This document shows, piece by piece, positions 25,641 through 63,125 of a DNA stretch of 64,000 bases (positions are counted from its first letter, which is position 1; the number at the start of each line of letters is the position of its first letter). Where the stretch lies: positions 18,014,457-18,078,456 of the forward strand of contig OZ316897.1 of NCBI GenBank assembly GCA_973895155.1. The letters run 5' to 3'. A model generated the notes under the pieces. It had not been told where the DNA came from. It did not search any database and was given only the letters and a program-made list of their open reading frames with translations. The translations under genes were made by a program, and so were the position numbers. Origin of the DNA: Marsupella aquatica. Taxonomy: Eukaryota > Plantae > Marchantiophyta.

Positions 25641-25669
25641 GTCTCAGTTCACCTCAGATTCTTCTAGTG

Positions 25670-34119: not shown

Positions 34120-34405
34120 GATTAGGATGGTCCTAGTCCAACTTGAGATGGTTTTAGACTTGCTCCTACAATCGGGATTCAATCTCCTAGATGGATTAGG
34201 ATCATCCGAGTCCAAGTTTGGATTGGGATGGTCCGAGTCCAAGTTTGGATTGGGATGGTTCGAGTCCAAGTTTGGATTGGGATGGTCCGAGTCCAAGTTT
34301 GGATTGGGATGGTCCGAGTCCAAGTTTGGATTGGGATGGTCCGAGTCCAACTTTGGATTGGGATGGTCCGAGTCCAACTTTGGACTCGGATGGTCCCAGT
34401 CCTCT
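34120..34405. repeat. 27-bp tandem array GGATTGGGATGGTCCGAGTCCAAGTTT
   Basis: About 8-9 near-identical units carrying the same imperfect palindrome as the 80-bp repeat, in opposite orientation. Confidence 0.9.
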
Positions 34406-36365: not shown

Positions 36366-36406
36366 CAAAATTTGCATGAGTTTGGTTTTAATCCATTTTT
36401 TTCAGT

Positions 36407-39400: not shown

Positions 39401-40816
39401 ACAGTGACATCCTTGGCTAAGTGTCTCCGAGACCTTGAAGAGTACAATGGAGACAAGACAGGTGACATGTTGGATGGCCTTCATTGGGAACCTCATAGAC
39501 CTTTCTTTCAAGCCCTACTTGACTTTGAAGCATTTTTTACGGGTTATTTGGAACCAAAGAATATACCGATGAATAGGTATATTGGTTCTGAAGATGGAGC
39601 TGAGAGTCAGACTGAGACCGTCCCAAACCAACAAGATGAGGATGAAGGAGAAGACATGCAAGGAGAGCAAGGCAGTCCATCGTTCAAGCCCTTGCCAAGG
39701 CACCTAACATTGCAGATGGATAATTCAACAAAGGACAACAAAAACCAGACTGTCATGGCATTTTGTAGCGAGCTTGTGAGTAGAGGAGTATTTGAAACTG
39801 TCCAAATGTCTTTTCTAATGGTTGGTCATACGCACGAAGATGTTGATGCACTCTTTTCAAAGGTATCATATCAAGTTCAGCACAAAGAAGTTGCAACCCT
39901 CCTTGCTCTTATGGCAGAGGTATGGGAATGCGAGAGCATTCATCCAGTTCCCAGATTGATACAAGAAGTTGCATCTTACAAAGAATATCTTCAAACTTTC
40001 AAGGTGAAAGATATTCAAGGTCACTCAAAACCTGTATCATTTCTTTTCTCTATGAGAGATAATGTACCAATATTTCAGTATAAGTCCCATGTAAAGCAAG
40101 CTTGGGCTCCAGTTGGTGGAAGGTGCATTTGGGCAACAGATTTGACAACAAATTCTCTTCTTTTACCTAGTGGAGAGCCCTTAGCTAAATCCATTGGAGA
40201 GATACACAAAAAATCTGAAGAGATTATCCCATTTCTTAACAAGTACCTTGATTTTTTGAGAAGGAGTTGCACTGATGAGACATCTATAGCATATAAGGAA
40301 AGATTTTCTCTTGTGAAATATTGGGAGAGAATTGTGGAGTTGTTGACAAATGGGCTCGCACTAGAAGGGGAGGGAAGTACTCAATTTCCCTTGAAAAACA
40401 GATTTTGGCCTAAGACTAACCACGGCACTGGTTACAAGGTCAACCAACGGGAACAAAGTGGTCCTCCAAGTGAAGATGAGGAGAATGCAGAGATAACGGC
40501 TCTTCAAAATGAGGTCTTGGAAGAGATGGAAGATCAAGCAACACCATTTGTTGGATCTCGAGCTGAGAGAGAACAAGGACGATGGATTCCTTTACAGGAT
40601 ATTTGTGAAGGAAACTTTGTATTTCTTCGACCCGAGGATGATTGGGAACGAGATCCAGGGTTTGGTGAGAATACTCAACATTGGCAGTATGCAAATTCTG
40701 CAATGTATGGTTTTAAATCTAGAATGAAAGAAGAAAACATGGCGGGCAGAGGTTTGAAGATCCCTCAAAATGTTCTACAAACTGTCCAAAATTATCTTCA
40801 AAGGATGGACAAGTAG
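36407..40816 (+). pseudogene. Sola1-like DDD (RNase H-fold) transposase with three N-terminal DUF8039-like repeats, split by a CACTA MITE
   Basis: CCKQKC...VCRHAF..IHG; FAKCTLCCEYK; rejoined YLCIIHDKMDQAK (first Asp); LQMDNSTKDNKN (second Asp); FLMVGHTHEDVDALFS (third Asp). Confidence 0.8.
38383..39225. mobile_element. 843-bp non-autonomous CACTA element
   Basis: TIR CACTAGTAGAAACCGGGG...CCCCGGTTTCTACTAGTG; 3-bp TSD CAA; removal restores the IHDKMDQ frame. Confidence 0.95.
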
Positions 40817-41352: not shown

Positions 41353-41423
41353 TAAATCAAATAATAATACACTTTTAATGAATAGGCTGATTGAGTCTCA
41401 TTGGATTTTATGTTGGGTTGCAG

Positions 41424-44115
41424 GATGAATCACATGCCGCAGTTGGATGAGGCGGTGCTTGCTTCTTTGCAAGAAATGCTCCATATCCACAACCCTTATG
41501 TGCAGATGTTCAAAAATGCCGGGAGCCGCATTCATGACGCTGAGGTGCCAGAGGTTTTGCTGCGTATTGTAGCTGAATGTGACATTGACCCAAGACGTTA
41601 CAATAAACCCACGGCGGATGAGATTGGTGTGATCATGGTTGGGGATGAGGATATTGAAACATGTGGTCGAGATATTATCCTAAGGACAAGGGATGGGGGC
41701 CTACGTAGGATTTCAGAGTGGCATAGGTCCTATGCTCCTCTCCACTGTCTTACTCTTTCCGCATGGCCAAGACAGGTGGTCGATCTTATGACATCCCATT
41801 GGTGGGCCATGAATTTCAAGATGGGGTCATTGTGGCAGTTGAACCCCAAGCAAGGGGTGGACGTAATGGCTCCAAAAAGGTTACACAACTACAATACTAT
41901 GCATACTTACTACATGCAAGGCGAGGTGATGATTGGTTGCTTCGTGGAGGGCGATTGCTAAAGCAATATATTGTGGACGCATATGCATGCATAGATCAAA
42001 CGCGACTGACCTATATTCGCAACAATCAAAAAAAGTTGCGCACGGAACTATATCAAGGGCTTCAAGATGCAGTTCAAGATGGAGATGCACGTGCAGGTGA
42101 TGTGGGTAGGACCTACATTTTGCCGTCCTCATATGGGGGTAGTGCCCGCAATATGATGCAGGCATACCAAGATGCCATGGCCGTTGTACGCACGTATGGT
42201 CCCCCTGACCTTTTTACCACATTTACATGCAATCCTGAATGGCCAGAAGTCAGAGCGAAGTGCTACCCCTATCAGACCCCGGCCGATCGAGATGACATTG
42301 TTGCTCGAGTGTTCAAACTCAAGTTGAAGGCACTTTTGGCGGACATTCGTGCAGGGGTCTTAGGTAGACCTGTTGCCTCTATGTATGTCATCGAGTTTCA
42401 AAAGAGGGGTTTGCCGCATGCCCACATTTTGATCATATTGGTTGAACGCCATAAACTACGCATGTTGGAGTTGGTGGACCAATTAGTTTCTACAGAGATA
42501 CCAGACGTGAGGGTGTATCCGCAATTATTTCAGACTATCACAAAATGCATGATGCATGGACCGTGTGGTCGGGGGTACCCCAACTCGCCTTGCATGGTTG
42601 ACGGACAGTGTAGCAAGGGCTACCCTCGACCATTTTCAATTGAAACAGTTTTTGGGGATGATGGGTATCCCATGTATCGGCGTCGAGATGATGGGCGCAA
42701 TTTCACAAAGGACAGAAGCGGGTTTAAGTTTGATAATAGGTGGGTTGTTCCTCATAGTCCGTATTTGAGCATGAAATACAATGCTCATATTAACGTGGAG
42801 ATATGTTGCTCTATCAAAGCCATTAAGTACTTATATAAGTACTGCTACAAAGGGCATGATAAAGCAACAGTGGAGGTAGAGCAGCGTGATGAAATAAAAG
42901 AGCATTTAGATGCTAGGTATGTGTCTGCTGCAAAAGGAGTATGGCGGATTAATCAGTTTGAAATGTCGGAGAGTAGTACTTCGGTGCAACGGCTGCAGGT
43001 GCATTGCGAGGGGGAACAATCAATTATGTTTCATGAAGATTCTGAGATCATTGATGTGGTCCAACAAGAATCTCATAGGGATACAACTCTAACTGGGTGG
43101 TTCAAAGCAAATGCTTTGCACGAACACGCGAGGCAGATTCTGTATACAAACTTCCCTCATGACTTTGTATGGAATCCGACAATACGTGCATGGACTCCTC
43201 GAAGAAGGGGGTTTAGCATTGGAAGGATGTATTTTGTGCCACCTGCTGCGGGGGAACGATACTACTCGCGAGCACTTCTACTTCATGTCAAAGGTGCAAC
43301 ATCATTCGTTGACCTTAGGACTTTTGAGGGCATTGTATACCCAACTTTTCAGGCAACGGCTCTTGCTTGGGGTTTGTACGAGAACGATGAAGAATGGGAT
43401 AGATGTCTTCAAGAAGCGGCCGGTATGCAGACGGGGGCACAACTTTGACAACTATTCATCACAATCATGTTATTTGGAGGTGTTGCTAGACCGTGTGACC
43501 TATGGACCCAACATGCATCAAATTTTAGCGATGATTGTTGTTATCATCTACGTTCAATGGGTTTTTTGGATCCCATTGAGGAGCAACAACAAAGCTTTGC
43601 CCTATATTTGATCGATGAGGCTTTGAAAAGTATTGGTAAAACATTGTTGGGGTTTGGTCTTCCGGTTCCAAGTATGCAATTTTTTGAAGAACCGGAAAAT
43701 AGGAATCGCTTGATATGGGAGGAGACATGCTACCCGATTGATGTACTTCTTCAACAACTTGCTGAACAAGAGCCGTTGTTAAATGATGGCCAAAGGGCAG
43801 CCTACACTGCAATACTTGCAGCAGTGAGGGCTCGAGATGGAGGAACATTTTTTGTTGATGGGCCAGAGGGGACAGGCAAAACATTTATAGTGGAGAATAT
43901 TCTATTGAGGAGAGTGCGTGCTGATGGGGATGTGGCATTGGCTGTGGCTTCCTCGGGTATTGTAGGTCTTTTGTTAGATGGAGGGCGCACTGCCCACTCA
44001 CGATTCAAGCTTCCGTTGAAACCGATCTCAACATCAACGTGTGCTGTTCAAAAACAATCTGACCTTGGTGGACTGTTACGGAGGGCAACTTTTATCTTAT
44101 GGGATGAAGCACCCA
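41424..44115 (+). pseudogene. Helitron RepHel piece 3: HUH Rep domain and start of the PIF1-type helicase
   Basis: RRYNKPTADEI; ILPSSYGGSAR; PDLFTTFTCNPEW; VIEFQKRGLPHAHIL; IKYLYKYCYKGHD; FFVDGPEGTGKTF; GGRTAHSRFKLP; LWDEAPM. Frameshift ~41750, stop at 43446, truncated by an insertion at 44116. Confidence 0.93.
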
Positions 44116-45524
44116 TGTGACGCCGGTGACATGGTCCTTATTCAATAATACAATGGAATTGGTATGCTGTGCACAGTAAGTAACTATGAGGCTGTAGAAC
44201 GATCAGCGAGATGGCAAGAATAAGGGCAATCATGGCGTTGAGAGCAGGACTAGGGCAGTTTAGCTTGAAGAGCGCACAGCCAAGATAGACATAATGGCCA
44301 TAGTCATTGTCAGGACCACAAATAAGCAGCTAGAGGACAAGAGGATTCACCTCCTCTACCATACTACCGTGCTAACGGGCACAATGGAGCATGGAGGCTC
44401 TCCAAGACGTAGGGGCAAGGGGAAGCAAGTCTCCACAATTGAGAAAATGGTTGTGTGGTATGGTGATTGTTATCATGATGAAATCATGATGAAATCTGAA
44501 TGTCTTGGGTGTGTATCTTCATTTTGTTACTTAGGTTAGTGATTCATAGTCTAGTTTTAGTGTGATAGGGAAATAAAAAGCTATGTTGCGGGTGGTCGGT
44601 GACCGTATCTCTTTCAATGTGTCGCTAAATCCGGATCTGTAAAAAAGCATTGGAAAGATCTGGTCAAGGCGAGTAAAATCGATATAAAACACTTGGGAAA
44701 CGAAGGTGTATTAAGAAAGATACGACCTGATTAGTGTGTCGGGTTAACTTGTGGCCGGAATTAACGGGTTTGGCTTTGGTTTCGGGTTAACCTAAGCTTG
44801 GCCACGGCTTAGCTTAGATCAGCCCGGCTTCAGCTTAGGCTTAGCCCAAGTTTGGGTTAGCCTGACCTCGGGCCCGGGTTAGCATAGGTCAGCTCGGGTT
44901 CGGGCTCAGACTAGCGGCTAGCAGATAGCAGACTAGCGGCTAGCAGATTAACGGACTAGCGGCTAGCAGACTAGCGGACTAGCATACTAGCAGACTAGCG
45001 GACTAGCAGACTAGCGGGTAGCAGATTAGCCAGAGGCCACGGGTTAGCTCTACTCGGGCTAGATAGGATAGCTTGGTTAGCCAAACTCGGGTTAGCTATG
45101 TAACTCGGGTTAGCGCAACAGTGTGTACCCCCTCTTGGTTGCGGGGGCATAACTTTCTCTGTATTTGCCCAAATCGGCTATAATTGACCTCGTTGGAAAG
45201 AGGAGCTCAAGCCGCTTCCAATGCTGCTATCAAATGGTTGAATAGAGAAATCGGGAGAGGAGGCGCAAGCTCACAAAAATTGTGGAGGAGGGCCAAATCC
45301 GAAATACATAGTCAGTTTGAGATAAAAATAAAGTTGCGAGTTAGGGTTTAGTAGTTAGATATAGTGGCGGCTCTGTTAGGTCTAGGATGGGGCACCAACA
45401 ACGTAGCATCCACCCATTTGGGCTTAGTGTGAGAGTATATAGGGCAGCCCCTCGGTAGAGGCAGGGGGGACTTCAGTTGTGTGATCTCACGTTGTCCGGG
45501 TGACCGTGTTTTCTGGCAAGAGCA
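44116..45524. mobile_element. Probable LTR of a retrotransposon inserted in the Helitron helicase; right boundary uncertain
   Basis: Helicase homology stops abruptly at TGTGACGCC (TG start); non-coding with short tandem repeats and a TATA-like TATATA at ~45436. Partner LTR not in the window. Confidence 0.5.
44900..45030. repeat. Short tandem repeat (CAGACTAGCGGCTAG)n
   Basis: Directly visible 7-8 bp subunits gactagc/ggctagc. Confidence 0.85.
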
Positions 45525-46458
45525 TGTTGACTCTTTTGAAGTTAACCTTGCATGCTTATAAGTTCTACACTAAAATCAAAATGATAATTCTAGTAACAAG
45601 GGTAGTGGGTATTAAGAAAGGTTCAGGTGAAACTAAAATACTGTTAAACTCTATTTCACCATACTTGCGGACCAACACATCACGAAAATTAGTTTTCTTA
45701 CGACATATGATCCTAATATCTCCAAGAGAAAATGAAACAGGAATATCATTCGGACTCCTATTCAGATTCATGACTTCAATAAAGGACAAAGATGATGCAC
45801 TCTCACTCCTCTCGGTACGACACCACTGGGTATATTATTGGCTCGTTAGAAACCATAACAGCAGTTGCAAACTGAGCTCCAAAATGATAGGTTAGATGTT
45901 GCCTCATAGATGGTTTGTCTAAAAGATGGACTCTAATCAAAAACGGATTACGAAGGGGAAGATCAGGGATAACTCTCTCTCCTGGATTCATGATGGCTCA
46001 TCTATTCCTTTGCTATCCGGGCCAAAGGACGCCCCACCCCTATATTCCCAAAGAAACCTTATTCCCTAAGGTCCCATCTATAAATCTACCACTCATTCCT
46101 TTGCTATCCGGGCCAAAGGACGCCCCACTACTATGTTCAAGGCACAAAAGAGCTTCACAACCTTGAATGATAAACACTGCGGAATGAGGGGAGAGTGCCC
46201 CTCACCACTTTATTTATAGTGCACACCAAGAGGGCATGGATCAAGCCCAAGCACTTGGATGAAGGCCAAGTGTCAAACATCTAATACCTAAGAGTGTGCT
46301 AGTACTATTCATAGTTGGTGAAACTACTTTTAGTAGATGGAACTGTGATGCCTAGACAGGAATCACTCGGCCGGTTAAGTGGGTAAAGCAGGAAGGCACC
46401 CTAGGAACACCTTAGTATAGGGACAAAACAAGGAAAATATAAACAATTAGGGGCAACC

Positions 46459-49400
46459 ATGGAACCCGGGCCGAGGCCGGAGGTAAGGCTGAGGGTGAAA
46501 ACCCGATTAGGGTTAGGGCGCGTTAAGCGTCGGCGGCTAGGAAGGATCAACGGGAAGAAGGACCGACAGAGGAGAGGGGTAAGGAGCGCTTGCAAGAGAT
46601 GGTGGCTCATTTGCGAGCACGAACTAGGCAGACGACTACGGGAGGCCAACTACTGTCAACTGCTTAGGCAAGCACTCGGGGAGAGAGTAGATACCGATGA
46701 TCGACCTAAGGAGGGTATGAGCAACGTCAATCAAGCGGCACATTTCTGGGGATGCCTGTTCGAACGGGCAACTGAGTACATCAAGACTTACGAGGACGAG
46801 GAATCAGAAAGGGCAGCTCGAGAACGGCAGAAGCTCGCTCGATTGTGGGAGCTGCAGAAGACGGCTTTCTTAGGAGGCAAACTCATCAAGGACGAGTTCC
46901 TGTGGATGCCTACTTCCAATCAACTCGACGATCTTTTGTTTTGCAAAGACAGCGTCGTCGGCATCCGAGAGGCCATCAAGAACTGCAACGACATACACTG
47001 GGAATTAAAGGGTAGCACGGAAAGGTGGACCCAAGCAACGGTGCTAGGAGAAACCTCCACGGCAGCAGAGATGAAGAGGAAGGGAGCCGTCAACGATGAA
47101 GCCACCCCGGCAAAAAGAACGAGGTCGGCGGCACCAAAGAAGCCAGCCGAGCAGCAGAGCAGGAGGCAGGGAGAAGCCGAAGAGGAGGAGGTCGATCCCA
47201 TCAAGGCCATTCCAACCAGGGATGACACCTGGAAGGGCTGGGCGGCAACCCTACCGGTGGAGGTGCAACTACATTTTGCACGGGAGGAGGATGCATGCTT
47301 TACGGCCATGCAGACCAAGAAGTACCAAGGCTTCATGGCCGGATCCGGCTTGGAGGCCTTTGTAAGATTACCATGGCTGAAGCCGGAGGTACCGGAGTCA
47401 GACCTATTAGAATTCGTGGGGTCATGGGAACCCGAGACCAATTGCACGAGGATATATGGGAAGGATTTCTATCTTACTCCCAAGGTAATTGCCGAAGTGT
47501 TTGGCCTGCCGATAGGCAATAAGACCAAAGTTGATACCAGGAAGACCTTGCCTGACAAGGAGTTCCGGTCGTTCCCCGGGCCATCAACAAAGAATGGCTT
47601 CTTCCGGAACACCTGCACCAACCCGCACATAGGAGAGATGATCGACTTCTTGCGGGTGACCATGCATTGTAACTTGCCGAGGGCAGAGATCGGCAAGGCA
47701 CAGGTCTATCTGGCAGAAAGGCCAGACCCAAGCCGGGACTACAACGGGTACCTCCTCAACCAATTGAAGAAGATCTTAAAGGAGGAGCAGCAGGTAATCG
47801 GCATGGGGAGCGTGTCGCGGCTGGGCTATCACATGCCGCTATTGTGCCGGTATGCCAGAGGTCAGACTTTTGCCCCGGTACTTCCCCTGCAGGTAAGGGC
47901 ACCCGAGGAAGCTCCAACGCCGAGGCCGTTGGCTGAGAAGCCTCAACCACCTGTTAGTCCTACGATCGAGCAGGTGTTTAGGCCCAGGAAGGAGGACTTG
48001 CCGATGCAGCAACCAGGCATGCAGAGTCTGCTGAAACTACTGGAGAAAGAAAAGAAATCGGCATCGGCAACAACAACGGCAACGGCAACAATGCAGGACA
48101 CTACTACAGAGGTAGGCCTACACCGGCTCACAAGAGAAAACCCCTTTGCTGGAGACAAGGAGAGAATCAGGCCAGAATCCAAGCCAGGTGTTCGAATGTA
48201 CGTGGGAACCTCAAGCTCCGAATCTGAGGCAGAATTGCCTGAAGCTCCTACCGACGAAGAGGAGAGGGAGAAGCCGGACGTCCAAGAGGTAGAGGAGGCA
48301 GTGGAGGACTGCAGCCATGATAATTCCGGCTATGGGTCGGACCATCACGTTCCAGGAGTAAGGACCTGTGGCCGGTTTGTCCCCACACTTCCAAGGGTAG
48401 TGCGAGGGGACCCCAACCAGCAGAGTAGCCCTGAGTCTCCCCCACCAGATGTTGCTCCCCCGAGCTTCGACGGCATAAAACAGACGGTGCAGGAATTTCA
48501 GGAGTGAATCAAGCAGGAGGAGGAGGCCGCCCTGGCTAAGGAAAAGGATTTACCAGGAGGAGATTGGCCGGAGGACATCAGGCGGCTAGCCAAAAAAGGA
48601 AGCAAACCTCTAGCCACGATTGAAGAGATCCGCAGGACGGCTTGGGAGCAGAGGCCGCGATGGGCGATGCCGATCACTTCTACTTACTCCACCTACGCTA
48701 AGAATAGAGCCATGGAGTATGGTGAGATGTGTGGGGAACTTGCGCTCGGCATCTTTGGAGAGGAGTTGGAGGTAGGACCCTTTTTCCATAGGGAGCAGTT
48801 GGAGAAGCACCAATTAGAAGAAGCGGTGGCTTTAGAGAGAAGCAAGAAGGACGAGGTCATTCGGCGGCTTAGGAGGATGGAAGCCGAGATTGAAGATCTA
48901 AGGGCGGCCAAGAAAGCCCAAGATGAACTGCGGATTAAACGACATGAGCTGAACATCATGCAGGGGCAGTTGGACACCGCGCAGGCTGATAATCAGAATA
49001 TCAAGGATAAACTGACTCAGACGCAGGAAGAGTTGGCCGACACGATCAAAGAGAGGGAGAAGTGGAAGCAAGAGCTGAAGAATACAGAGGAGGCCCACAT
49101 AACAGCCAACAGCCGGGCCATGGCGGAGACCCAAAGAAAGGAATGGGCGTTGAAAGGGGAGCTCGAGAAAATCCGTGGAGCCCTTGAGCAGAAGGAGGCT
49201 GAGTTAGGGAAATCCTATCAAGGGATTATGGCGCTGCAGCAGGAGCTTGCGTCCCTGACGGCCAGCTTCAAGGCCGACCTAAGGGAGAAGGACGAGATGC
49301 TCGAACAGACTTACGCCAAGATGAACCAGATGGAGTCTGTCATCATTGCAGAGCTCGACAAGGAGCTAAAAGCAACCCAGGAGGAGAGGACTACCTTGAA

Positions 49401-50091
49401 ACAAGAACGGGAGGAAGCCCAGAAGGAACTTGAGGAGGCACGCAAGGACCTGGATGAGACCCAGGAGGAGTTGGAGGAAATCACGAGGAAGATGGAGAAC
49501 CTCCAGCGGCGGGCCGACAACCAAACGGAGCGGCTGAAGAAACAAGCCGCAGTATTTAGGTGCTTGTCTTCATCAGGCCCAACTCCAATTGGGGCAACCA
49601 AGTTACCAGGAGTGGTACTGGCCGAAGAAAAAGCCGCGCCAACTGCACCAGTGCCGGAGGTAAGTGGGAAGGGGAAGGGACCAGCTGCCGAACCAGAAAA
49701 GAAGAAAAAGCGGAAACCTTCAGGGTCAAGGAGTAATCCGACTCCACAAGCCGTGGTGACCAAAGAGGTAGAACCAGCACCATCCTCCGACATGAATACG
49801 GCAATAGATCCCGCTATGATCACAGGTGGGGGTGGTGCGGCCCAAGCCAAACTACTCAGTAAGGAGGCTGGTATTCCAGATCCGCCTCTTGAGCAGGCCG
49901 GGGAGACCGTAGCCGAGGCTGAGGCCATAACCGATTCTCGAGCCGATGCCGACGCCGATGGTGGACCCAATCAGGCCGATGGAGAGTTGACTCAGTCAAG
50001 GGCAGGTAATCTGTCAGGGAATGAGCCTACGGCAGTGGCTGAGGAGGAAGCGTTGGGGGCGTCCATTAAGGATCCACCACCGGTGTCGTGA
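46459..50091 (+). pseudogene. LTR-retrotransposon accessory ORF (~1210 codons, one internal stop): plant-transposon-protein/PMD-like domain plus long coiled coil
   Basis: 46459-48507 and 48667-50091 share a frame separated by a single TGA at 48505. Contains GLEAFVRLPW...EFVGSW...IYGKDFYLTPKVIAEVFGLP and E/K/Q-rich heptads at ~48800-49550. Confidence 0.6.
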
Positions 50092-50995: not shown

Positions 50996-52357
50996 TGTCG
51001 TATAGTGCTAAGTATCAAAAGTGACTCTTCTCACCTAAAACCAGGGTTTCGATCCCTTTAAGAACAGATTTCAGAATGAATTGTATAACTTTTATCACTC
51101 CGAGTGATTTAGAGTCTTGAGCTCTATGTTGACTTCACTTCTCAATAAAAAAAATCGAATAAACAAACAACAAAGTAACTGAACTTCTGATTTATGAATT
51201 AGAGAAGAAATGAGTAAGGATTTAGAGACTACAAGCTGCTACTGCCACTCCTTCAGAAAGGATTTGGGCTCAGTATAGACATGAAATCTATCTCATAATT
51301 CATCCATCTCACTCTTCAAAACACAAAGGTTAATGATAATGGAATTCTCAATCTGATGAAGCAGAAGCTTTCTGATTGCAAATGAATGATATGATTTAAA
51401 ATGCCGTCAACATGGTTTGACATCAGCGATACACAATTCAGTCAAACTCTAAACCATATTCCAGAATCAAAGCAACAGTACTAACTACTCTGAGAATCAG
51501 AATTTACTTCTCATTTATCATTAACTATTCTTGAATTGGCTAGCGAATCCCGACTCTGCAAGCAAGCCTAGCAGTGAATTCAATACGAGTTTCAGAAATC
51601 TGCAACTGAATTCAATCACCACAGGAATCTCTTGAATTCAATCTTAACTTCAATCAATATAGCTTTACTTCCATACAAAACACTCACAGCATGCCTTGTT
51701 ACAATGGAAGGAGGAGAAAACTATTCAGAAGACTCAATTCTGAATACAGTATTAACTCTATTTCTCTCTACTTCAAATGAGCATTCTACTCTGTCTTATA
51801 AGTGCTGGAATCCTAAAATGGAGGAGGTAAGAACAGTCATGCCTTTCCAAGCTTAAAACTAAACAAGGGAGAAGCACAGCATAAGTACTTCAACAAGGGT
51901 GGTAGAATACTACTTTACTAGTAATCTACTTCAAAAACTAAGTGTTGAGCGGACGCTGCTAGAAGCGTCTTAAGTAAAACCAACGGACGCTGCTCACACT
52001 GCTCACAGCGTCAATACTAGGGTGGACGCTGCTCACAGCGTCGTGTGTTGAAGCTGACGCTTTCCACAGCGTCGGTCGAAATCCTCATAGAGTCTTGGTG
52101 GCGGTCGGGCGCTGCCAAAAGCGTCATGAGGAGGTTGGACGCTTCCGCAGCGTCTTGAGTAAAAGAAACGGGCACTGGTCACAGCGTCGGGCAAAGTACA
52201 CTAGGAATCGTCAGGAAAGCCGGAGATGTCAAATATTTCTATAAGTGTCCAGAACAAGTAAATGTTGGCCGGAAGGTGTCTAAAGTGTAAGTAAATCTTG
52301 TGATATGCTAAAAATAAACAAGTTTCCAGAAAAAATTGCAGGGACACCCATACCACA
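50996..52357 (-). repeat. 3' LTR (1362 bp, TG...CA)
   Basis: TGTCGTATAG...TACCACA; matches 63132-64000 except for one substitution seen (gtcAtg vs gtcGtg); preceded by candidate TSD GGGAG. Confidence 0.95.
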
Positions 52358-52375
52358 TAGCCCTCCACTTAAATT
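52358..52375 (-). other. Polypurine tract
   Basis: AATTTAAGTGGAGGGCTA directly before the 3' LTR on the minus strand. Confidence 0.8.
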
Positions 52376-52434: not shown

Positions 52435-52811
52435 TTAATAATATTCTGGCTTAATAATCCAAGTAGTGCTCAAAATCATTGACGGGAGTTGGGAGATATC
52501 CGAATCCAGAATATAAAAATCAAGGTCATGGAATTCTTCTCCGATCTGTATTGGGACTCCTTTAACTCTTCCCCAAAGATTAATGATTCGTCCATCGATT
52601 GATATCTGAGCAGATATCGGTTGTACTTCTTGATGAACAAATTGCTGGCACAGTCTGTGGGAGAGGAAATTAATTCGAGAGCCTGGATCAATAACAAAGT
52701 GTTGAATAGCATGTCCTCCCAGTTTGATCTTGCCTTCAAAGGAATGTTGGAAAGCACGGGGTAAAGAATTCCAACAATCCATAGTAGCTTTGATGTCCCA
52801 CATGAGCAAGC
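52435..52811 (-). CDS. Second retropepsin-like aspartic protease domain, probable terminal exon of the extra ORF
   Basis: IKLGGHAIQHFVIDPGSRINFLS...GRVKGVPIQIG...LDFYILD...MILSTTWI; preceded by a polypyrimidine tract and TTTAG acceptor. Confidence 0.65.
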
Positions 52812-52925
52812 CTAAATATCAATTCGAAGGAGAAAGAAGGAAACAATTGCAGGATGCTGCAAAAGTAACGGCTTATATACATATAAATGACAACACCGTT
52901 TGATATCTCTCATAAATGGTGTCCT

Positions 52926-55499
52926 TCAAATCTGTGTCCTAGATAAAACACCTTGAATAATCACATCCGGATAAGAAGGAATAATAGGTAGGAACGCTAA
53001 ACACCTAAGCGACTTGAACCCTTGGGAAGCCGGTAGCATACATTGTTTTGTAATCAACTGCTCCCTTAGCTTAACAAGCTTCTTCTCATATTTAATTGGA
53101 ATAGCAAACCCACCAGGACAAACCCAAACATAGTATGGATAGGGCCATGGAATTTCCGGCACAAGGGGCGGAAATGGAGCTTGAGCTCGTCGAAGCATAT
53201 ACACCCAACACCAAATTTCGAACTCCGAAAACTTATGTCGTCTGTCCTTATCAATGGGAGGAACCGCCTTCCCAGGTTCATATGTGCGAATCAAACTACG
53301 AATCCTCGGATGGGATGTCATTGGCAAAATCTGCTGCTGCTGCAAAATGCTCTCCATCTCCAGATGTCGAAAAGCTACTCGAAAATGTTTCTTCTCCCAC
53401 CTGTGAATTGAAGCCAAATTAGGGATAGGATTTCGGGGTGGCAAATCCACTGTATGCCGAAGTCGAGGAGGTACTCTGATAATGCGAGGGTCTTCGTCTT
53501 CTTCTCCATCACTTGGTGCTCCTATCCAACGGAAAATTACATCTGGCATAGCGGAAGGAATCACTGACTCCTTAACTGGTCGAATTGGCAATGTAACAGG
53601 AGACGAAGGAGCAAAAGGTTCGGGCTCCAGTGGTTCAAATTCTTCTCTTGCAACAGTAGCTGGTTGATCTGCAGTGGGATGCATTGGTACTAAAACAGGA
53701 AGTTCTTCTTTAAAATTATCGCTAGGTAAAGAGACTTCCTGGTTAGTTCGATCTGCCAAAAGTACAGGAAGGGGTAGCTCGTCTGTTCCGATAGGTGCTT
53801 CTCCCTGTTCAAAATCCTGGGAAGATGCTTCAGGAAAGATCTGTCGACTGATAGCATGGCGCAACCGTTTCCAAGATTTTCGAGTATACGTCACTGAAAA
53901 CTCCTCCCGAATGTTTTTATCCTCGTTTGTAGCCAATGAAACTGGTGCTGAGCTGGTTGTCGAAGCGGGTGTCTCGGGTACCAATATGGGTACAGATATA
54001 CCCATATTACCAGATACCTGATTGCGACTCGGAAAACCAGCAGAGCCTCCTTCAATCAACTCATCTTCAGGAGAAACCCATTTTACAGGCGGAAATGAAG
54101 GAGCTCCTATCGCGGCTATTGCCTCATCTAATTCCTTAGTTATATCCAAAGGAATCGATATGAGTGAACCAGGTGTAGACCAGGCAGGGTATCTTGCGAC
54201 AGATTGGGGAGAAGTCACTGGTTCACCTACTTCGTCTATATCCACAATTGCATCCTCCGAATCAACTTTAACCAGCTTCACAATTTCTGAGCTTAATATT
54301 TCTGACTCCTGGACCAGAGGGATTTCACCTATATTTGGGCTAGAACTAAGAGAGTCGGACGAATCATACTCCTGTAAAGCCTGCAAAGCATCACTATTTG
54401 CCTCTATGGGAACCAAAACAGGGGTAGAAGTAAATCCATCATACTCGTCCTCAGCAGTAGAATGTTGAAGAGGTTCCCCTGAAAAACCTTCTTCATCCAC
54501 CCTCACCTCATCTTCAACATTCATCCGAGAAGCAGAATTATCCTGATCAACATCATAAATAGGCTCGGCAGCACAAGGTGAACACGAGAGTCGAGGTGAC
54601 ATAGAATGCTCCAACCCTGTTGGCATTGCTGAAGGAACATCTTCGGCAACTTGAGCCTCTCTTGGTTGGTGAAGAATCGGATCGTCACTCCCTTCAGCTG
54701 ATGCTCTTGTCTCTTTCAATTTCCGAACTTCACCCACCAGTTCAGGTTCCTCACAGTCGAGTATTGCACATAGCTCTACCACTGTGGAATTGGCTCGGAC
54801 TTCTCGTACTTCAGGCATATAATTTGCTTCACCGGTAGATGCTCTCTGATTGTTGCGATAAAAATCTTTTTCCAAGACAAGCAGACAGTCATACTTATGG
54901 TAAATGTGAGCTAAATAAGGGGCCAAGTAGGTACACCTTATTTTCCCCGTTTTCAGCCTGCTACGAAAATTTTTGACCTGAGTATGAATTACTCGGTGCA
55001 AAACCTTCGTCCAATTGATAGACTGCGTCTGTTCTAATGAACAGATCACCGTTGCAGCGAACGAAAGAGTGATGCGCGTCTGGCTTTCTGGGTAGAAAAT
55101 TGGTGCCAGAAATCGAAATAGACGCTGCAGAGAATTATCTAAGCAGTCCGCCGCTAGCCATCCATTCCGCCTCTTGAAAGATCCTGGAGCGAAGAAGGAT
55201 TCTACATAAACCCGAGGCTCACAATCAACCCTCTGTAAATCCTCGCCCTCCATCGGCGTCGAATAGACCTTCGCTATGAGCGCTTCAGTCCAAACACTGG
55301 GACGCGAGCGCACACCAATCCTTTCTTCAGCGTCCCAGACACCTTGATCGATAAGGCTGAATTCGCAAATCTTCCAAGGAAGTTGAAGCAGCTTCTTCAA
55401 GCCCATTTTTGCCAGAGCCGTCTTCAACTGCCGCCTATGCACTGCATTCGATGGAATGTCTGCGAGTATTGGTCGCGTCGTCAGCTCAGTCTCCGCCAT
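52926..55499 (-). CDS. Extra ORF in the env-like position (857 aa): N-terminal plant-transposon-protein-like domain, acidic/Pro-rich linker
   Basis: Intact ATG-started ORF between integrase and 3' LTR, on the element's sense strand; no obvious signal peptide. Confidence 0.8.
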   Translation of the reverse strand: MAETELTTRPILADIPSNAVHRRQLKTALAKMGLKKLLQLPWKICEFSLIDQGVWDAEERIGVRSRPSVWTEALIAKVYSTPMEGEDLQRVDCEPRVYVESFFAPGSFKRRNGWLAADCLDNSLQRLFRFLAPIFYPESQTRITLSFAATVICSLEQTQSINWTKVLHRVIHTQVKNFRSRLKTGKIRCTYLAPYLAHIYHKYDCLLVLEKDFYRNNQRASTGEANYMPEVREVRANSTVVELCAILDCEEPELVGEVRKLKETRASAEGSDDPILHQPREAQVAEDVPSAMPTGLEHSMSPRLSCSPCAAEPIYDVDQDNSASRMNVEDEVRVDEEGFSGEPLQHSTAEDEYDGFTSTPVLVPIEANSDALQALQEYDSSDSLSSSPNIGEIPLVQESEILSSEIVKLVKVDSEDAIVDIDEVGEPVTSPQSVARYPAWSTPGSLISIPLDITKELDEAIAAIGAPSFPPVKWVSPEDELIEGGSAGFPSRNQVSGNMGISVPILVPETPASTTSSAPVSLATNEDKNIREEFSVTYTRKSWKRLRHAISRQIFPEASSQDFEQGEAPIGTDELPLPVLLADRTNQEVSLPSDNFKEELPVLVPMHPTADQPATVAREEFEPLEPEPFAPSSPVTLPIRPVKESVIPSAMPDVIFRWIGAPSDGEEDEDPRIIRVPPRLRHTVDLPPRNPIPNLASIHRWEKKHFRVAFRHLEMESILQQQQILPMTSHPRIRSLIRTYEPGKAVPPIDKDRRHKFSEFEIWCWVYMLRRAQAPFPPLVPEIPWPYPYYVWVCPGGFAIPIKYEKKLVKLREQLITKQCMLPASQGFKSLRCLAFLPIIPSYPDVIIQGVLSRTQI

Positions 55500-55887
55500 C
55501 GCGTGACTTGTTAGCTCCGTAAGCTCAGTGAGAATCGTGTTCCATAGTGAACTAGGGCGAAGCGCGACTGCTTACTCCTCAGCGTCCCGTTGAGCTGTCG
55601 CAATCCGCCATTGTACAAGACGCCTAGTCATCGGCTCACAGCGTCTCATGCAACTGAACTAATACAAAAGCGGACCTCTGCACAACGTCCTTTGTAAACT
55701 AAGTGGACGCTTCCCCAGCGTCGAGTTACAATGGACGCTTTTCACAGCGTCCAATGTAAAAACTGAAAGTAACTAAAAATAAATAAAAAATAAAAATATG
55801 CCGAATACTTACTAGGGAGGGTCACTAATTCTAACTAAGTATAACTACCGCCCTCCACTTAAATTGCAACCTGTCCCAGGTGGAATT

Positions 55888-58859
55888 CTAAATGGAAGAC
55901 TCATAGTACCGTTTAATCCTAAACCCATTGATTCTAGTGTTAAGTGGGTGACCATCTAAGGTAGTCAATGAAACTGAACCATTATCCCAGATGTGTGTAA
56001 CTCGGTAAGGACCAATCCAATGAGTATGAAGTTTCCCAGGAAATAGCATATAACGAGAATCAAAGACTAATGCTAATCACCAACATCTAACTGCACTACG
56101 CGCAGCTTCTTATCATAAGCAAGTTTACGCTGGTTCTGAATGGTGACTGTATGGTCTAATGCTAAAAGTCTAACTTCTTCTAATTTAACAATATTGGAAA
56201 ACCGATGTGAGAGACTATCTGAAGGAGAGAGTCGGTGTGGTACCAAGATACGTTCCGTTGGTAACGAAAATTCTATTGGAATAATACTATTCAGGCCATA
56301 GGTCAGATAGAAGGGGGTGTGAAGAGTTGTAATCTTCTCAGCGGTGCGGTAAGCCCATAATGCAGAATGGAGCTTCACATCCCAATCTGTCTTGTGAGAT
56401 TCTACCATTTTATTCAGAATCTTGCCCATAATGCCATTAGCTCTCTCGGTTAAGCCATTAGCTCGGGGGTTGTAAGGAGTAGTTTTGCGATGCTTGATAA
56501 GATAAAGGTCAGTGATTAACTCAATAGTTGAGTTAAGAAAATGCAAACCCCTATCGCTTACCAACTCCAAAGGACAACCAAACCGGGTGATAATGTGCTC
56601 AAAGAGAAATGCAGCTGCGGTTATAGCATCATTCTTGCGAGTAGCTTTCGCCTCTACCCATTTGGTGGCATAATCAGTGGCCAGAATAATATATTTGCTT
56701 CGGCTTTTCCGAGCTGCTGGAGAAATTGGGCCAATAAAATCAATCCCCCATTTCTCAAATGGTGCCAACGGAAGGATAGGCGTAAGAGGCCATTTGGAAC
56801 TAGCAGTGGGCTTCCCGATCCTTTGACAGGGATCACAGGTCTTAATAAAATTGTAAGTATCTCGATGCATAGTAGGCCACCAGTATCCAGCATCCAAAAT
56901 TTTCTTAACTGTGGTATTCACAGCATAATGCCCACCGGTTTCTCCTGAATGTAAAGCTTCAATTACTTGGGGAAGTTCCCTATCCTCTAGACAACGTCGT
57001 AATTGTTGATCAGGACCTTGTTTAAACAAAGTGCCCCGAATAATGGTATAGGGACCCACCTTATGAGCAAAGACAACTCGTTCTTCCGCATTAAAGCCTT
57101 CAGGGAACGTTCCATGAAGCAGCATGTGCACAATATTAAAATATCGAGAAGACTCCCCTTCAATGTGCCACAAATGCTCGTCAGGAAATTCATCGGAGAG
57201 ATTATGCTGATTCTCCGGACCAGGTAACCGAGATAGGAAGTCTGCATTCTCATGATGTTTGCCAGGTCGGACATGAACTTCATAATCAAATTCTTGGAGT
57301 AGTAAAACCCAGCGGGCTACTCGTCCTGAGAGATCCACTTGGTTAACCAAATATTTTAAGGAATTATGATCAGTGTGAAAAGTAACCTGATACCCCAACA
57401 AATAGTGACGAAATTTCTTACACGCAAAGACGATGGCCAAAGCTTCCCGTTCAGTGACGGAGTAGTTTTTCTCGGCTGCACTCATTTGGCGGCTGGCATA
57501 GTAAATTGGATGGTCACGGTTTTCCACATCCTTCTGACTGAGATTAGCTCCAATGCAGAACGCAGAAGAGTCAATGAAGACATGAAACTTCTTAGTCCAA
57601 TCTGGGGGTGACAAAATAGGTGCAGAGATTAACCGATCCTTGAGCAACTGGAATGCTTGCTGCCGCTCCTCATTCCATGTATATTCCACATCACTTTTTA
57701 ACAGTTGGGTTAAGGGTAAGGCAATATTAGCATGTTTATAAATGAACCGACGATAATACCCCACATGTCCCAGAAAAGCACGAAGCTGCTTTAAATCGGT
57801 CGGTGGTTGCAACTCCATAATTACTCTAACCTTCTCTGTATCAACCTCAATGCCGCGTTGTGAAATAACATGGCCTAACAAAATTCCCTCCTTCATACCA
57901 ATAAAGCACTTTTCTGGATGAAGACACAACTGAGCCTCTCTACACTTCTGAAATGTCTTCTCCAAATGGACGAGGTGTTCAGCCGCTGACCCGTAAACAC
58001 AAAAGTCGTCAATAAAAATCTCCATGAAATGCCGCAAATATTCTTGAAAAATAATCATCATAATGCGCTGAAAAGTACCCGGGGCATTACACAGCCCAAA
58101 AGGCATCATGGTAAATGCATATGTACCCCAGTCGGTGGTGAACGTAGTCTTGTCGCGATCCTCCTTCCGAATGGACACCTGGTTATAACCAGAGTACCCA
58201 TCTAAAAAACTGTATAACTCATGCAAGGCCACTGAATCAAGTACCAGATCAATAAATGGCAAAGGATAATGATCTTTCCGAGTGGCAGCATTCAACTTCC
58301 GGAAGTCTTGACAAACGCGAATTTTCGTTTTACCATCGGGTCCCGGCTTTTTGGGGACAATGACAATTGGTGAGACCCATTCACTACTCAAGACCGGGTA
58401 GATAAATCCAGCAGTCGTGAGCTTGTCCAACTCGTCTTTAACCAGGATGGAATATTTGGGATTCAAACGGTACTGTCTCTGTCGGACAGGTACTGCTCCT
58501 TCCATAAGGTCAATACGATGTTCGCCCAAATGTGGATGGATACCTTTTAAATCAGAATGACTCCAGGCAAAGACATCTTTATACTGGGTTAATAAACTGA
58601 TATACTGTTCCCGTAGCTCTCCTTCGATATGCTTACCAATATTCAAAAACTTGCCTGGCTCAATTTCGATTTTCTGACAAGCTTTTGGATCCACAATTCC
58701 ATCCGTGAGGTTTGCCGGCTGAAGTCCAAGTTTGGATACTTCTGGTGCAAATGGCTCAAGGGTAGCTGACACTCCCATATCATGGTGTAAATCCCTATTA
58801 GCCTCAGTATTAGGAGGTTCGTCTGCTGCTGGGCCCACTTCCGATGATGAAGTTAATTG
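55888..58859 (-). CDS. pol: pol: reverse transcriptase, RNase H, integrase; apparent 1-bp frameshift near the end
   Basis: SEWVSPIVIVPKK; LDGYSGYNQ; MPFGLCNAPGTFQR; FIDDF; DSSAFCIGA; TDHNSL; HHCC zinc finger; WGIDFIGP; SDRGLHF; PRANGLTERANG. The GPY/F tail (PGKLHTHWIGPYRV) continues in another frame after ~56075 to the stop at 55888. Confidence 0.95.
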
Positions 58860-61800
58860 TCAGGAGGGCCTAGTTGGTTTTATGGGAGCATCAGACAGAT
58901 AAACTTCCAAGTAACGAACTTCCTCCAGTTCAAATTCCAATGGCTGCAGGACTAGCGAAGAGGTCGAAAAATCCGAGGTGTACCCATCATCTGTTTGTGT
59001 TTCTCCAAAATGTGGTTCCGGAACCCAACTAACAGTCACCTTAGGCTTCCCAAATGAAAGCTCTTGAGATTGCCAATTAACCTGAACTTGAGCCTTATAC
59101 AACCATGGTCGGCCTAACAAAACAGGAAAGCTGGATGGTATTTCCGGATTAATAACCACATAATCCAACAGAAAAGGGACACCAGCAATCAAAGTTTCTA
59201 CTTTGGTCAGCTTCCCTATGGGTACCACACGAGACTGATCCGCCATGCGCAAAATCTTGGGAGTGGGCTCAAACTTAGTGAAACCCAAATTAAATGCTGC
59301 TGATTGTGTAATCAGATTAACGCTGGCTCCTCCATCCACAGGAACTCTCCGAATGACACACCCCTGGATTTGAACCTCAATTTCCATCGGTCCTTTGTCC
59401 TCCCACTCTGTTCGTAGCACATCCACAGAAGGTAACTTCTTCTTCCTCCGTTTTCCTGCAAGGAGGCTCCTCAGCTGTCGCCTATAAACCGGATTGTCCT
59501 GTAATAATTCCCCAATGGTGATATGTGCAGGATGATTCTTGACATCTTCAACAATATCATAACCTGGATTTTTCAGTGGCTCTTTAGCTTTGACTACTAC
59601 TGGTGGGTTAGGAGATTGCACTTGCTCCTTAACTAGCTCTTCCAGATGGTCTTTCACTTCCAAAGAGATGTCGGGCAAGAAGTATTTTGGGTCATATCGG
59701 TCATAAGCAGGGTCGTCTTCTTTGTCGAGGCCTTCCTTACATGGCTTGCGCCCTTCATCCTTGGGAGCTTTCGCGACCTTCTGATGCTCGTGCTTCTTGG
59801 TCTCCTTTTTCTTCGAACGAGTAGTTGCGTAAATATTAGTCAGAACTTTATCCCGATTCTGAACTCGATCATTCGGCATACCAACTACTTCAGGTTTCAC
59901 TAAATGACTTACCAAGACATCAGGCACCACCCCGGATACTGGTTGATGAAAAAGTGAATCTGGCTTTAATTCCACCCGATTTACATCCATATGTTGAATG
60001 AAGCTGCATTGCTCCATCTCTTCAGAATAAACCATCCGAATCTTGGCTTCAGGTCGACTTGCTTCTTTAACTGGCTCTTGAGCAAATCGAACCATCAGCC
60101 TAGGCTTAGCCGGATTCGGGCATTCCACCGGTAAGTGTCCTTCTTTTCCACAGTTCCCACAGACAGGTGTATACCCCACCTCCTGTTTGGGATAAGGGCA
60201 CTGGGGTGAATAATGATCAGGTTGGCCACAATTCCAACAAGCCCCTTTTTGACGCGGCATTCCTCGTGGTGGGTATCCTCCCGGGGGTCCCATGGGTGGT
60301 CTTGACGTTGGTTTATTGAAAGTGGGCTTAGGTGGTCCCCAAGTCGGTCTGGAAGCAGGAGGTGGTGGGAAATACTGTCCAGGGGGTGCTGTTTGGACGG
60401 TATACGCGGGATCGTACTCATACTCCTCAGCCTCTTCTTGAGCATCTACATAATTCACCGGGGTTCGTAATGTGGGGCACTCGTTCGGGTAATGGCCCTG
60501 CTGACTGCATCGGGTGCACCATACGTTCATTCTCATGGGAGCAGGCAACCTTCGTACTGGTTTTACCGCGGCGATATTGACATTCAACTTGGACAATTGG
60601 CCAGAGAGTTCTTCCATCATGCGATCCATCTTCTTCTGGTTGGGAACTTTATTATTCCCTTTTACAGAGGATTTCTTCTTTTTAGGAGCAACGGATTCTG
60701 AGTCGGAACTTGAGCTTGAACTATCACTAGTGCTCGAATTTGTACTCTCGTCCTCCTCACTAGTGCTACTTTCACTTGATTCCGTCTCCGAGTCAGATTT
60801 AGACCTGGACGTTTTCTTCTTCTTTCTTTTGTCTTTCTTCAGGTCCTTCTTAACTCGTTTTCTCTCTGAAATCTCCGAGTCTACGTACTTCTGGGCTGCC
60901 TCTTGTACTTCTTCCAAAGTGGTGCCACCTTCTCGTCTCACGTAACGAGCAATCCTGGAGGGTAAACCGTTAATAAACCAGTCCTTGATAGTAGATTTCG
61001 AGGTAGCTGGATTATATTGATCTACCAAATCCAATAATTTGTCGGCATATTTCCTCACAGACCCATGTTTCTTCATGTGCAGATGTGAGATTCGGGCAAA
61101 GGCACGCGCAGCTGCTCCTTCTTCTTTATATTTGGCCAAGAAAGCAGCCTTCAATTTCCCCCAATCCTGCTTGTCCGGAAAACGGTCATACCATTTCTGA
61201 GCACCCTTTTTCATTAGACCACCAAACAGATTGGCTTTTTCAGCGTCTTGACTCTGTCCATTGGATGCAGCTGCAACTTCAAATTCTTTCAAATACACCT
61301 CTGCATCCTCCTTGGAAGTACCGAAGAACCGGTCGTACCTCACATTATTTCGAGCCATCGTGGTTGGAGCTAGGAGGGTAACGAAAGGAAGAGCTGATCG
61401 GGTAGCAAATGGGTTTGGGCTGCCCAAGCCTGAACTGCTGCTTGTCTCACTAGAAGACGAACCACCGGCTTCACTCAGTGGTTCTGGATTATCCAATTGT
61501 GAAAGACCGACAGAATTATCTTGGGCCAGCGATTCTGCAACTGTATTCTCGGGCAAACCCAAATTTCTTCCTTCGGTATGAGATAAGGCCCTCTCAGTGG
61601 TACTATCCACACCAGAGTCAATTTGGTTCACCGAACGTACTGTCTGCTGGCGGAGCTTGGTCTTTTGAGAACCAATAAGTTTTGGACCTGAACGAAGATT
61701 TACAAACAGGGGTCGGGTCGACGTGGGCCTTTCCAAAGAGCCACTTGCCTCTTGAATAGATCCCACTTGTTTCCACACACTACCCGGTGCAGGTGCTCCT

Positions 61801-63107: not shown

Positions 63108-63125
63108 TCCCCGGCAGCGGCGCCA
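63108..63125 (-). other. Primer-binding site, tRNA-Asp type (Athila-like)
   Basis: TGGCGCCGCTGCCGGGGA, 6 nt inside the 5' LTR; one mismatch from the Athila consensus TGGCGCCGTTGCCGGGGA. Confidence 0.88.

What the first reader, a model, noticed from the sequence alone, without database searches (positions are those of the whole stretch)
58851..58865. UGA-CAA-UUA leaky-stop signal between protease and RT in an Athila-like element
Seen: gag-PR ends ...CCC TCC TGA CAA TTA ACT... and pol continues in the same frame. Known: stop-CARYYA is the tobacco mosaic virus readthrough context, and a similar signal is used between pol and env-like ORFs of SIRE1. Inference: programmed readthrough sets the Gag-PR to Pol ratio, at an unusual position after the protease. 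The near-identical LTRs make random decay less likely, though the element does carry a frameshift elsewhere.
Basis: partly seen in the sequence, partly recalled or inferred. Interest (0 to 1): 0.75.

Follow-up and report, generated by a model that had tools for sequence, protein, structure and literature searches.

The report
Leaky stop splits bryophyte retrotransposon polyprotein
A young jumping gene of the moss-and-liverwort type has a single stop codon between its protease and its copying enzymes, followed by the same leaky-stop signal that tobacco mosaic virus uses and kept in distant relatives, so it likely makes its copying enzymes only when ribosomes read through that stop.

Summary
Confirmed. 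On the minus strand, gag-PR ends TGA (58862-58860), then CAA TTA, and RT-RH-INT follows in frame.

The stop is not decay. High-depth contigs in two runs bridge it unchanged, while the frameshift near 56074 is absent from the dominant contigs. All 6 of 6 related loci (54-58% nucleotide identity to the window, one metagenome) have TAG-CAA-CCA or TAG-CAA-TCA between PR and RT. The second codon is Leu, Pro or Ser but always YYA; background is 13 of 5823 stops. Programmed readthrough is likely (0.85) but unmeasured.

Two corrections. The position is not unusual: one stop between PROT and RT is the prevailing layout in Retand (49%). Athila membership is not shown: RT sits in a bryophyte clade, where many relatives have PR fused to RT.

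This scan noted a similar signal before, in DNMT-carrying bryophyte gypsy elements (unchecked notes). New variant of a known kind.

The parts
58860..58862 (-). In-frame UGA stop ending Gag-PR; candidate readthrough codon
   Evidence: unchanged in bridging contigs of X1 and X2
58854..58859 (-). CAAUUA hexamer (CARYYA, type I readthrough context)
   Evidence: CAACCA or CAATCA after TAG in L001-L006
58860..61913 (-). Gag-PR ORF from the first ATG: capsid, CCHC knuckles, retropepsin, then 86 residues from the LLGRPWL motif to the stop
   Evidence: Pfam Retrotrans_gag and zf-CCHC; weak protease hits below cut-off, E 0.005; first ATG
59100..59381 (-). Aspartic protease domain (D-G-G-A-S and LLGRPWL motifs)
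   Evidence: gag-asp_proteas, residues 81-174 of the piece, below cut-off; motifs conserved in the alignment
56073..58859 (-). Pol frame (RT, RNase H, integrase), in frame with Gag-PR; no additional RNase H
58776..58778 (-). First AUG of the pol frame (codon +28 after the stop); start site of the rival internal-initiation model
56070..56080 (-). Frameshift that cuts the integrase C-terminal part in this copy; dominant contigs of four runs keep the frame
63108..63125 (-). Primer-binding site, 6 nt inside the 5' LTR; the same 18 nt occur in L003
63132..64000 (-). 5' LTR (part inside the window; cut by the window end)
50996..52357 (-). 3' LTR. 50996-51864 matches the 5' LTR with 1 mismatch; the extension to about 52357 is inferred from the adjoining polypurine tract
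52360..52370 (-). Polypurine-tract-like motif before the 3' LTR
55850..55860 (-). Second copy of the polypurine-tract-like motif, just after pol
52926..55571 (-). Extra sense ORF (881 aa stop to stop). No Pfam hit, no strong hydrophobic segment; homologous to the extra ORF of L005
   Evidence: 31-32% identity, E 7e-29 and 6e-21

Best explanation
The UGA-CAAUUA is a family-wide stop signal between protease and reverse transcriptase of a bryophyte-type non-chromovirus Ty3/gypsy retrotransposon, and it likely works by programmed type I (TMV-like) readthrough. Most ribosomes would stop and release Gag-PR; a small fraction would decode the UGA and make Gag-PR-RT-RH-INT from the same RNA, which sets the Gag-to-Pol ratio. 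Shown: the stop, its frame, its presence in the family's dominant contigs, and a stop plus CARYYA in six related loci. Inferred: readthrough itself, its rate (a few percent, by analogy with viral signals), protease made one-to-one with capsid, and packaging of Pol through its Gag part.
For: (1) X1 contig (882 nt, depth 788) and X2 contig (273 nt, depth 1335) bridge the stop with 0 differences. (2) Internal control: the frameshift near 56074 is not carried by contigs holding 797 of 866 depth in X1, 1685 of 3262 in X2, 4658 of 7695 in X4 and 7.3 of 11.9 in X5. (3) 6 of 6 related loci have TAG then CAACCA (4) or CAATCA (2); pol continues in frame into RT in the 4 of 6 that reach it. (4) Conservation is at the nucleotide level: codon +2 is Leu, Pro or Ser with A third in all 7 sequences, whereas the third base is invariant in only 4 of 43 fourfold columns (0 of 43 invariant A) of the pol start in L003-L006. 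(5) A decay stop in L006 lacks the motif. (6) The linker varies from 135 to 168 codons in L001-L006 and keeps the frame; residues on both sides of the stop are conserved with many synonymous changes. (7) The first AUG after the stop is not at a conserved place: +3, +12, +25, +25, +28, +29, +39. (8) In planta, UGA in the TMV context is read through, at reduced rate, and decoded as Trp (Lao 2009, PMC2754532; abstract, section 6 and passages).
Against: No translation data of any kind. All six loci come from one metagenome and form one tight group (68-82% nucleotide identity in the PR region), so they count as one conserved signal, not six independent gains. The linker cannot be aligned between them and the window (stop 86 versus 135-168 residues after LLGRPWL), so positional homology is not shown. 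Only 2 of the 6 runs laid gave a listed contig bridging the stop, and one of them may be the window's own source. The codon before the stop is UCC, not the CAA of TMV, and 5' changes lowered readthrough in Lao 2009. Every sequence has an AUG within 40 codons after the stop. 28 of 52 RT homologues printed have PR and RT in one frame, so the clade does not need this stop. In Tca2 a junction that looked like a readthrough site did not direct readthrough in a yeast reporter (PMC2194720 abstract).
Confidence: 0.85

Rival explanations
1. The stop is a true terminator and Pol is made separately, from a shorter RNA or by internal initiation or reinitiation at the AUG 28 codons downstream (58778).
For: That AUG has G at -3 and +4 and lies upstream of the whole RT; all seven sequences have an AUG within 40 codons of the stop. 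Tca2 has a cryptic promoter at its gag-pol junction.
Against: It does not explain the invariant CAA-YYA, the kept frame across a variable linker, or the amino-acid conservation between the stop and the first AUG in L003-L006. The AUG position is not conserved.
Confidence: 0.07
2. The stop lies in an intron that is spliced from some transcripts, as in Ogre.
For: Ogre does this between GAG-PROT and RT (Neumann 2019 passage). 55 GT..AG pairs could remove the stop in frame, 4 of them from an AG/GTGACT donor at 59039. In L001-L006 the TAG itself could be a 3' splice site.
Against: Only one stop and no frame break in seven linkers. The four candidates from that donor are 53-54% A+T and 26-27% U, and the upstream 150 nt of L001-L006 are 15-20% U; plant introns are U-rich (recalled). 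The window has TGA, which is no acceptor. The 59039 donor would delete the GET..GYTSD block conserved in relatives.
Confidence: 0.05
3. The stop is a nonsense mutation of a dead or non-autonomous lineage and the hexamer is coincidence.
For: This copy has a real defect near 56074, and many relatives have PR fused to RT.
Against: The dominant contigs keep the stop but not the frameshift. Background is 13 of 5823. Relatives at 54-58% nucleotide identity have a different stop codon with the same motif.
Confidence: 0.03

Closest known systems
Retand (Tat lineage; RIRE2, Tat4, Cinful) and part of Ogre, layout GAG-PROT:s:RT-RH-INT (Neumann et al. 2019, PMC6317226; passages and Additional file 5 read)
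   Same: One stop codon between protease and RT in a plant non-chromovirus Ty3/gypsy element (Retand 49%, Ogre 14%). Lao 2009 cites the RIRE2 paper for readthrough candidates among rice gypsy elements.
   Different: No additional RNase H, the extra ORF is sense, and the host group is bryophyte by the named relatives. The parts of Neumann 2019 that I read give no stop context or mechanism for Retand. Whether Retand stops carry CARYYA was not tested here.
Tobacco mosaic virus type I readthrough signal (UAG-CAR-YYA; PMC2754532 section 6, PMC2194720 background)
   Same: Stop followed by CAA-UUA; no 3' structure above shuffled background (z 0.18 and -0.22).
   Different: UGA instead of UAG, UCC instead of CAA before the stop, and in a nuclear retrotransposon.
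SIRE1 of soybean (Havecker and Voytas 2003; paper not held; named in PMC2194720, CARYYA detail recalled)
   Same: Plant LTR retrotransposon with an in-frame stop read through.
   Different: Ty1/copia, and its stop lies between pol and the env-like ORF, not between PR and RT.
Athila (OTA lineage)
   Same: About 13.5 kb (inferred), no aRH or chromodomain hit, PBS a few bases inside the LTR and starting TGGCGCC (recalled as tRNA-Asp type), extra ORF after pol, two PPT-like motifs.
   Different: Listed Athila layouts are a single ORF (50%) or a stop between GAG and PROT (12%). RT groups with bryophyte and unnamed sequences, not with the angiosperm hits. No Athila ORF-1 Pfam hit.
Moloney murine leukaemia virus and Tca2 gag-stop-pol (PMC2194720, PMC8310308 passages)
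   Same: The Gag-to-Pol ratio is set at an in-frame stop.
   Different: There the stop lies before the bulk of the protease and MuLV needs a pseudoknot; here it lies after the protease and no 3' structure was found.

Membership tests
Type I (TMV-like) readthrough signal | Stop codon directly followed by CARYYA | tested here: met
   TGA CAATTA; TAG CAAYCA in 6 of 6 loci
Type I (TMV-like) readthrough signal | Downstream ORF in the same frame | tested here: met
   4 of 6 loci reach RT in frame, the other 2 end 5 and 36 codons after the stop
Type I (TMV-like) readthrough signal | Hexamer conserved as nucleotides, not as amino acids | tested here: met
   Leu, Pro or Ser with invariant third A; control 4 of 43 invariant, 0 of 43 invariant A
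Type I (TMV-like) readthrough signal | A readthrough product is made and depends on the hexamer | not testable with these tools
   needs a reporter, ribosome profiling or proteomics
Athila | Ty3/gypsy order PR-RT-RH-INT without aRH or chromodomain | tested here: met
   Pfam scan of the pol frame and of the L005 pol with its full C-terminus
Athila | RT groups inside the Athila clade | tested here: inconclusive
   RT lies on the bryophyte side of a 100/99 branch, apart from Lolium, Pyrus and P0277. Those rows are only presumed Athila; no labelled reference was available.
Athila | PBS complementary to tRNA-Asp | not tested
   The PBS starts TGGCGCC, 6 nt from the LTR; Diaspora and Calypso have 5 bp. 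It was not compared with a host tRNA; the tRNA-Asp label is recalled.
Athila | Single gag-pol ORF, or stop between GAG and PROT | tested here: not met
   the stop lies after PROT against the layouts
Athila | 5-bp target-site duplication | not testable with these tools
   the window ends inside the 5' LTR and no genome is held
Athila | Athila ORF-1 or env-like ORF with a membrane segment (present in only part of the family) | tested here: not met
   no Pfam hit; highest 19-residue hydropathy 1.48
Retand / Ogre (Tat) | Additional RNase H (aRH) between RH and INT | tested here: not met
   one RH domain, about 100 residues to the integrase zinc domain
Retand / Ogre (Tat) | GAG-PROT, single stop, RT-RH-INT | tested here: met
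Phygy | Short element (7.7-10 kb) without an extra ORF | tested here: not met
   at least 13.0 kb with an 881-codon extra ORF
Phygy | RT groups with Physcomitrium non-chromovirus elements | tested here: inconclusive
   a P. patens protein (P0022) is among the protease hits at 45%; no labelled Phygy RT was in the tree

The most novel reading that the evidence does not exclude
Bryophyte aRH-less gypsy elements form a lineage in which the Gag/Pol switch has moved during evolution: no break in some families, a break between Gag and PR in others, and a TMV-type leaky stop after PR in at least two deep branches, one with UGA and one with UAG. CARYYA readthrough at the RT boundary would then be a general, so far untested way for plant non-chromovirus retrotransposons, Retand included, to make excess Gag from one RNA.
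Probability: 0.4. Interest if true: 0.65.

Novelty: new variant of a known kind. Interest (0 to 1): 0.5.

Why it matters
How plant LTR retrotransposons make more Gag than Pol is only partly known. The passage I read in a 2025 review (PMC12786077) names frameshifting and a spliced short Gag RNA, and the word readthrough does not occur in it. This element gives a nine-base, reporter-ready signal backed by a natural stop-codon swap (UGA and UAG) and by the exact degeneracy of the viral motif. It also suggests a mechanism to test for the unexplained single stop in half of Retand elements, and warns that annotation tools would score such copies as broken. The mechanism and the position are each known already, which limits the surprise.

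Tried and rejected
No genome is held for the window, so copies could not be counted or aligned. No RNA holder listed. Scans of viral contigs (25 stretches matched, 0 relatives) and genome contigs (12 matched, 0 relatives) gave nothing. In one search, X5's two pieces end at 58851 and start at 58868 and do not bridge the stop, X6 covers only 58981-59040, and X8 laid nothing; X4's cover of the stop is not visible in the cut tables.

A 3' stimulatory structure was looked for and not found (z from -1.29 to 0.91 in 11 folds).

One origin of the stop was neither shown nor rejected (AU p 0.07 and 0.10; groups named after seeing earlier trees; 32 of 104 rows). One search dropped 21 of 124 rows with under 330 aligned residues.

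Protein ends as a proxy for stops: P0012, P0015 and P0035 end 83-92 residues after the PR motif, like the window (86), and two Marchantia models end at 89-90. The ends of 89 of 150 hits are spread widely (15 in the 80-99 bins), and no DNA was seen, so this is only a hint. The search for longer fused forms gave 1 protein among 971 candidates.

Literature: ten searches listed no paper on CARYYA readthrough at PR-RT in bryophyte elements. Gao 2003, Havecker 2003, Steinbauerova 2008 and Harrell 2002 are not held, and Neumann's Additional files 1 and 3 were too large to read. Gao 2003 in particular may already discuss the RIRE2 stop context, so absence from print is not established. The extra ORF could not be looked up in the Atlas.
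Full report
Observation. The element lies on the minus strand from the window end to 50996. A 1018-codon frame (61916-58860) carries gag, CCHC knuckles and a protease; a 928-codon frame (58859-56073) carries RT, RNase H and integrase. The protease Pfam hits are weak and below cut-off (E 0.005), but the D-G-G-A-S and LLGRPWL motifs are conserved in relatives. The two frames are in phase and separated by one TGA followed by CAA TTA ACT. By chance, 13 of 5823 stop triplets in the window are followed by CARYYA. The LTRs differ at 1 of 869 comparable bases; the rest of the 5' LTR is outside the window. A PBS lies at 63125-63108, PPT-like motifs at 55860-55850 and 52370-52360, and an 881-codon extra ORF at 55571-52926.

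Is the stop a family trait? No genome is held, so I used public runs. Nine of 11 listed runs hold part of the region, and I laid six. An 882-nt X1 contig at depth 788 and a 273-nt X2 contig at depth 1335 bridge the stop with no difference. No other letter was listed at 58851-58862, where differences were listed from 1 in 100; the table was cut, with 743 rows not shown. The frameshift near 56074 behaves differently: contigs holding most or about half of the depth in all four runs keep the frame there. So the frameshift is decay (or an error) of this copy and the stop is not. Limits: contigs drop rare variants, depth is no copy number, one of X1 and X2 may be the window's own source, and X5, X6 and X8 do not bridge the stop. 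Depth arithmetic suggests that further X2 contigs of summed depth about 80 lie over about 58839-58871 and run on unlike the window, with no difference listed at the signal; this is a hint only.

Is it conserved beyond the family? The four best gag-PR homologues all end at the same motif, GS[KR][EQ]LK, 143-182 residues after the PR motif. A scan of metagenome contigs matched 110 stretches, of which 6 encode a relative. All 6 have TAG at that motif, followed by CAACCA (L001, L003, L004, L006) or CAATCA (L002, L005). Four reach RT in frame; two end 5 and 36 codons after the stop. They share 68-82% nucleotide identity with each other and 54-58% with the window over the PR end, and all come from one metagenome. 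Codon +2 is Leu in the window and Pro or Ser in the loci, always with A third, while only 4 of 43 fourfold columns of the pol start have an invariant third base and none an invariant A. A decay stop in L006 is followed by GGAGAA. L003 has the same PBS as the window and L005 a homologous extra ORF, so these are kin by architecture too. Against over-reading: the linker does not align between the window and the loci, and the six loci are one clade.

Place in the tree. The best RT homologues are unnamed metagenome proteins and gene models from Riccia sorocarpa, Calypogeia fissa and Marchantia polymorpha. In a 32-row tree the window groups with P0201 and P0163 (96/97), the TAG loci form their own clade (100/100), and both sit in an unresolved fork with Riccia, Calypogeia and PR-RT-fused families. 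All of these lie apart from Lolium, Pyrus and P0277 (100/99). A single clade of stop-bearing families is neither shown nor rejected (AU p 0.07 and 0.10). Of 52 RT homologues printed from 120, 28 have PR in the same frame as RT, and 22 of these begin 191-287 residues before the PR motif with no Gag domain listed, which suggests a break between Gag and PR in those families; their DNA was not seen. The host is probably a liverwort. This is inferred from the named relatives and from unchecked notes on the same genome.

Mechanism. The pattern is what type I readthrough predicts: one stop, a kept frame across a linker of varying length, protein-level conservation on both sides, a hexamer conserved as nucleotides, and no 3' structure. 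Lao et al. 2009 measured 32% readthrough for TMV UAG in leaves, reduced readthrough with UGA, loss with a C-to-G change after the stop, and Trp at the UGA (PMC2754532; abstract, section 6, passages). I infer that most ribosomes release Gag-PR and a minority make the full polyprotein. The rate is unknown and probably lower than for TMV, as the 5' codon is not CAA. Protease would be made one-to-one with capsid, as in avian retroviruses (recalled). Rivals are initiation at the AUG at 58778 (0.07), Ogre-like splicing (0.05) and decay (0.03). The Tca2 case (PMC2194720; abstract and passages) shows that junction reporters need controls for cryptic promoters.

Comparison with what is known. Neumann et al. 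2019 (PMC6317226; passages and Additional file 5) list a single stop between PROT and RT as the prevailing layout in Retand (49%) and in 14% of Ogre. For Athila they list one ORF (50%) or a stop between GAG and PROT (12%), and no layout for Phygy. So the position is known in plants, but in aRH-bearing angiosperm lineages, and the parts I read give no stop context. A 2025 Retand paper (PMC11963269; passages) reports one or two ORFs without discussing readthrough in the passages found. A 2026 paper describes liverwort Tat elements without aRH (PMC13468544; passages); whether this element belongs there was not tested. I also saw passages of PMC3441728, PMC7466625, PMC1142308, PMC5890265, PMC8310308, PMC12786077 and PMC12885004. 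SIRE1's use of CARYYA is recalled; that paper, Gao 2003, Steinbauerova 2008 and Harrell 2002 were not held. Ten searches listed no report of this signal in bryophyte elements, but the missing papers may bear on RIRE2. Earlier notes of this scan describe UAG-CAA-CCA before RT in DNMT3-carrying bryophyte gypsy elements, one of them in this genome. I did not test them and do not count them as support.

Verdict. The feature is real, conserved and most likely a programmed readthrough site (0.85). It works like the TMV signal and is laid out like Retand, but it is not shown to be an Athila, fails the aRH test for Retand and Ogre, and fails the size and extra-ORF test for Phygy. New variant of a known kind; interest 0.5.

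Noticed in passing
window 52435-52818 (-): A 127-codon ORF between the extra ORF and the 3' PPT looks like a second retropepsin (D-P-G-S motif; Asp_protease_2 at E 0.012, below cut-off).
   Followed up: partly
window 52926-55571 (-) and L005 4213-6447: The extra sense ORF has conserved N- and C-terminal blocks (31-32% identity to L005) around a long acidic, low-complexity middle; no Pfam hit and no clear membrane segment, so 'env-like' is unsupported.
   Followed up: partly
window 55850-55860 and 52360-52370: The same PPT-like motif occurs after pol and again before the 3' LTR.
   Followed up: partly
proteins P0166-P0189, P0197, P0208: 22 relatives with PR fused to RT all begin 191-287 residues before the PR motif, just after where the zinc knuckles would be, which suggests another conserved recoding point between Gag and PR. 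DNA not seen.
   Followed up: no
proteins P0110 and P0281 (Marchantia polymorpha models): Both end at NQP[DE][DE]D, 89-90 residues after the PR motif, possibly a shared stop in a Marchantia family.
   Followed up: partly
window 46405-50091 (+): Two long frames (700 and 527 codons) joined in frame by one TGA followed by ATCAAG, not CARYYA; coiled-coil-like, only weak Pfam hits for the second. The retrotransposon's 3' end lies about 900 nt downstream.
   Followed up: partly
window 17218-20970, 25618-26280, 36392-40816, 41395-44120: Broken ORFs that resemble CACTA/En-Spm transposases and helitron Rep/helicase pieces (recognised by eye; labels recalled, not scanned).
   Followed up: no
window 34083-34514, 35529-36392, 31913-32312, 14436-14651: Tandem arrays with units of 27, about 80 and 72 nt.
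   Followed up: no
window 29658-29728: A 71-nt stretch 79% identical to part of the LTR, possibly a remnant of a related LTR.
   Followed up: no
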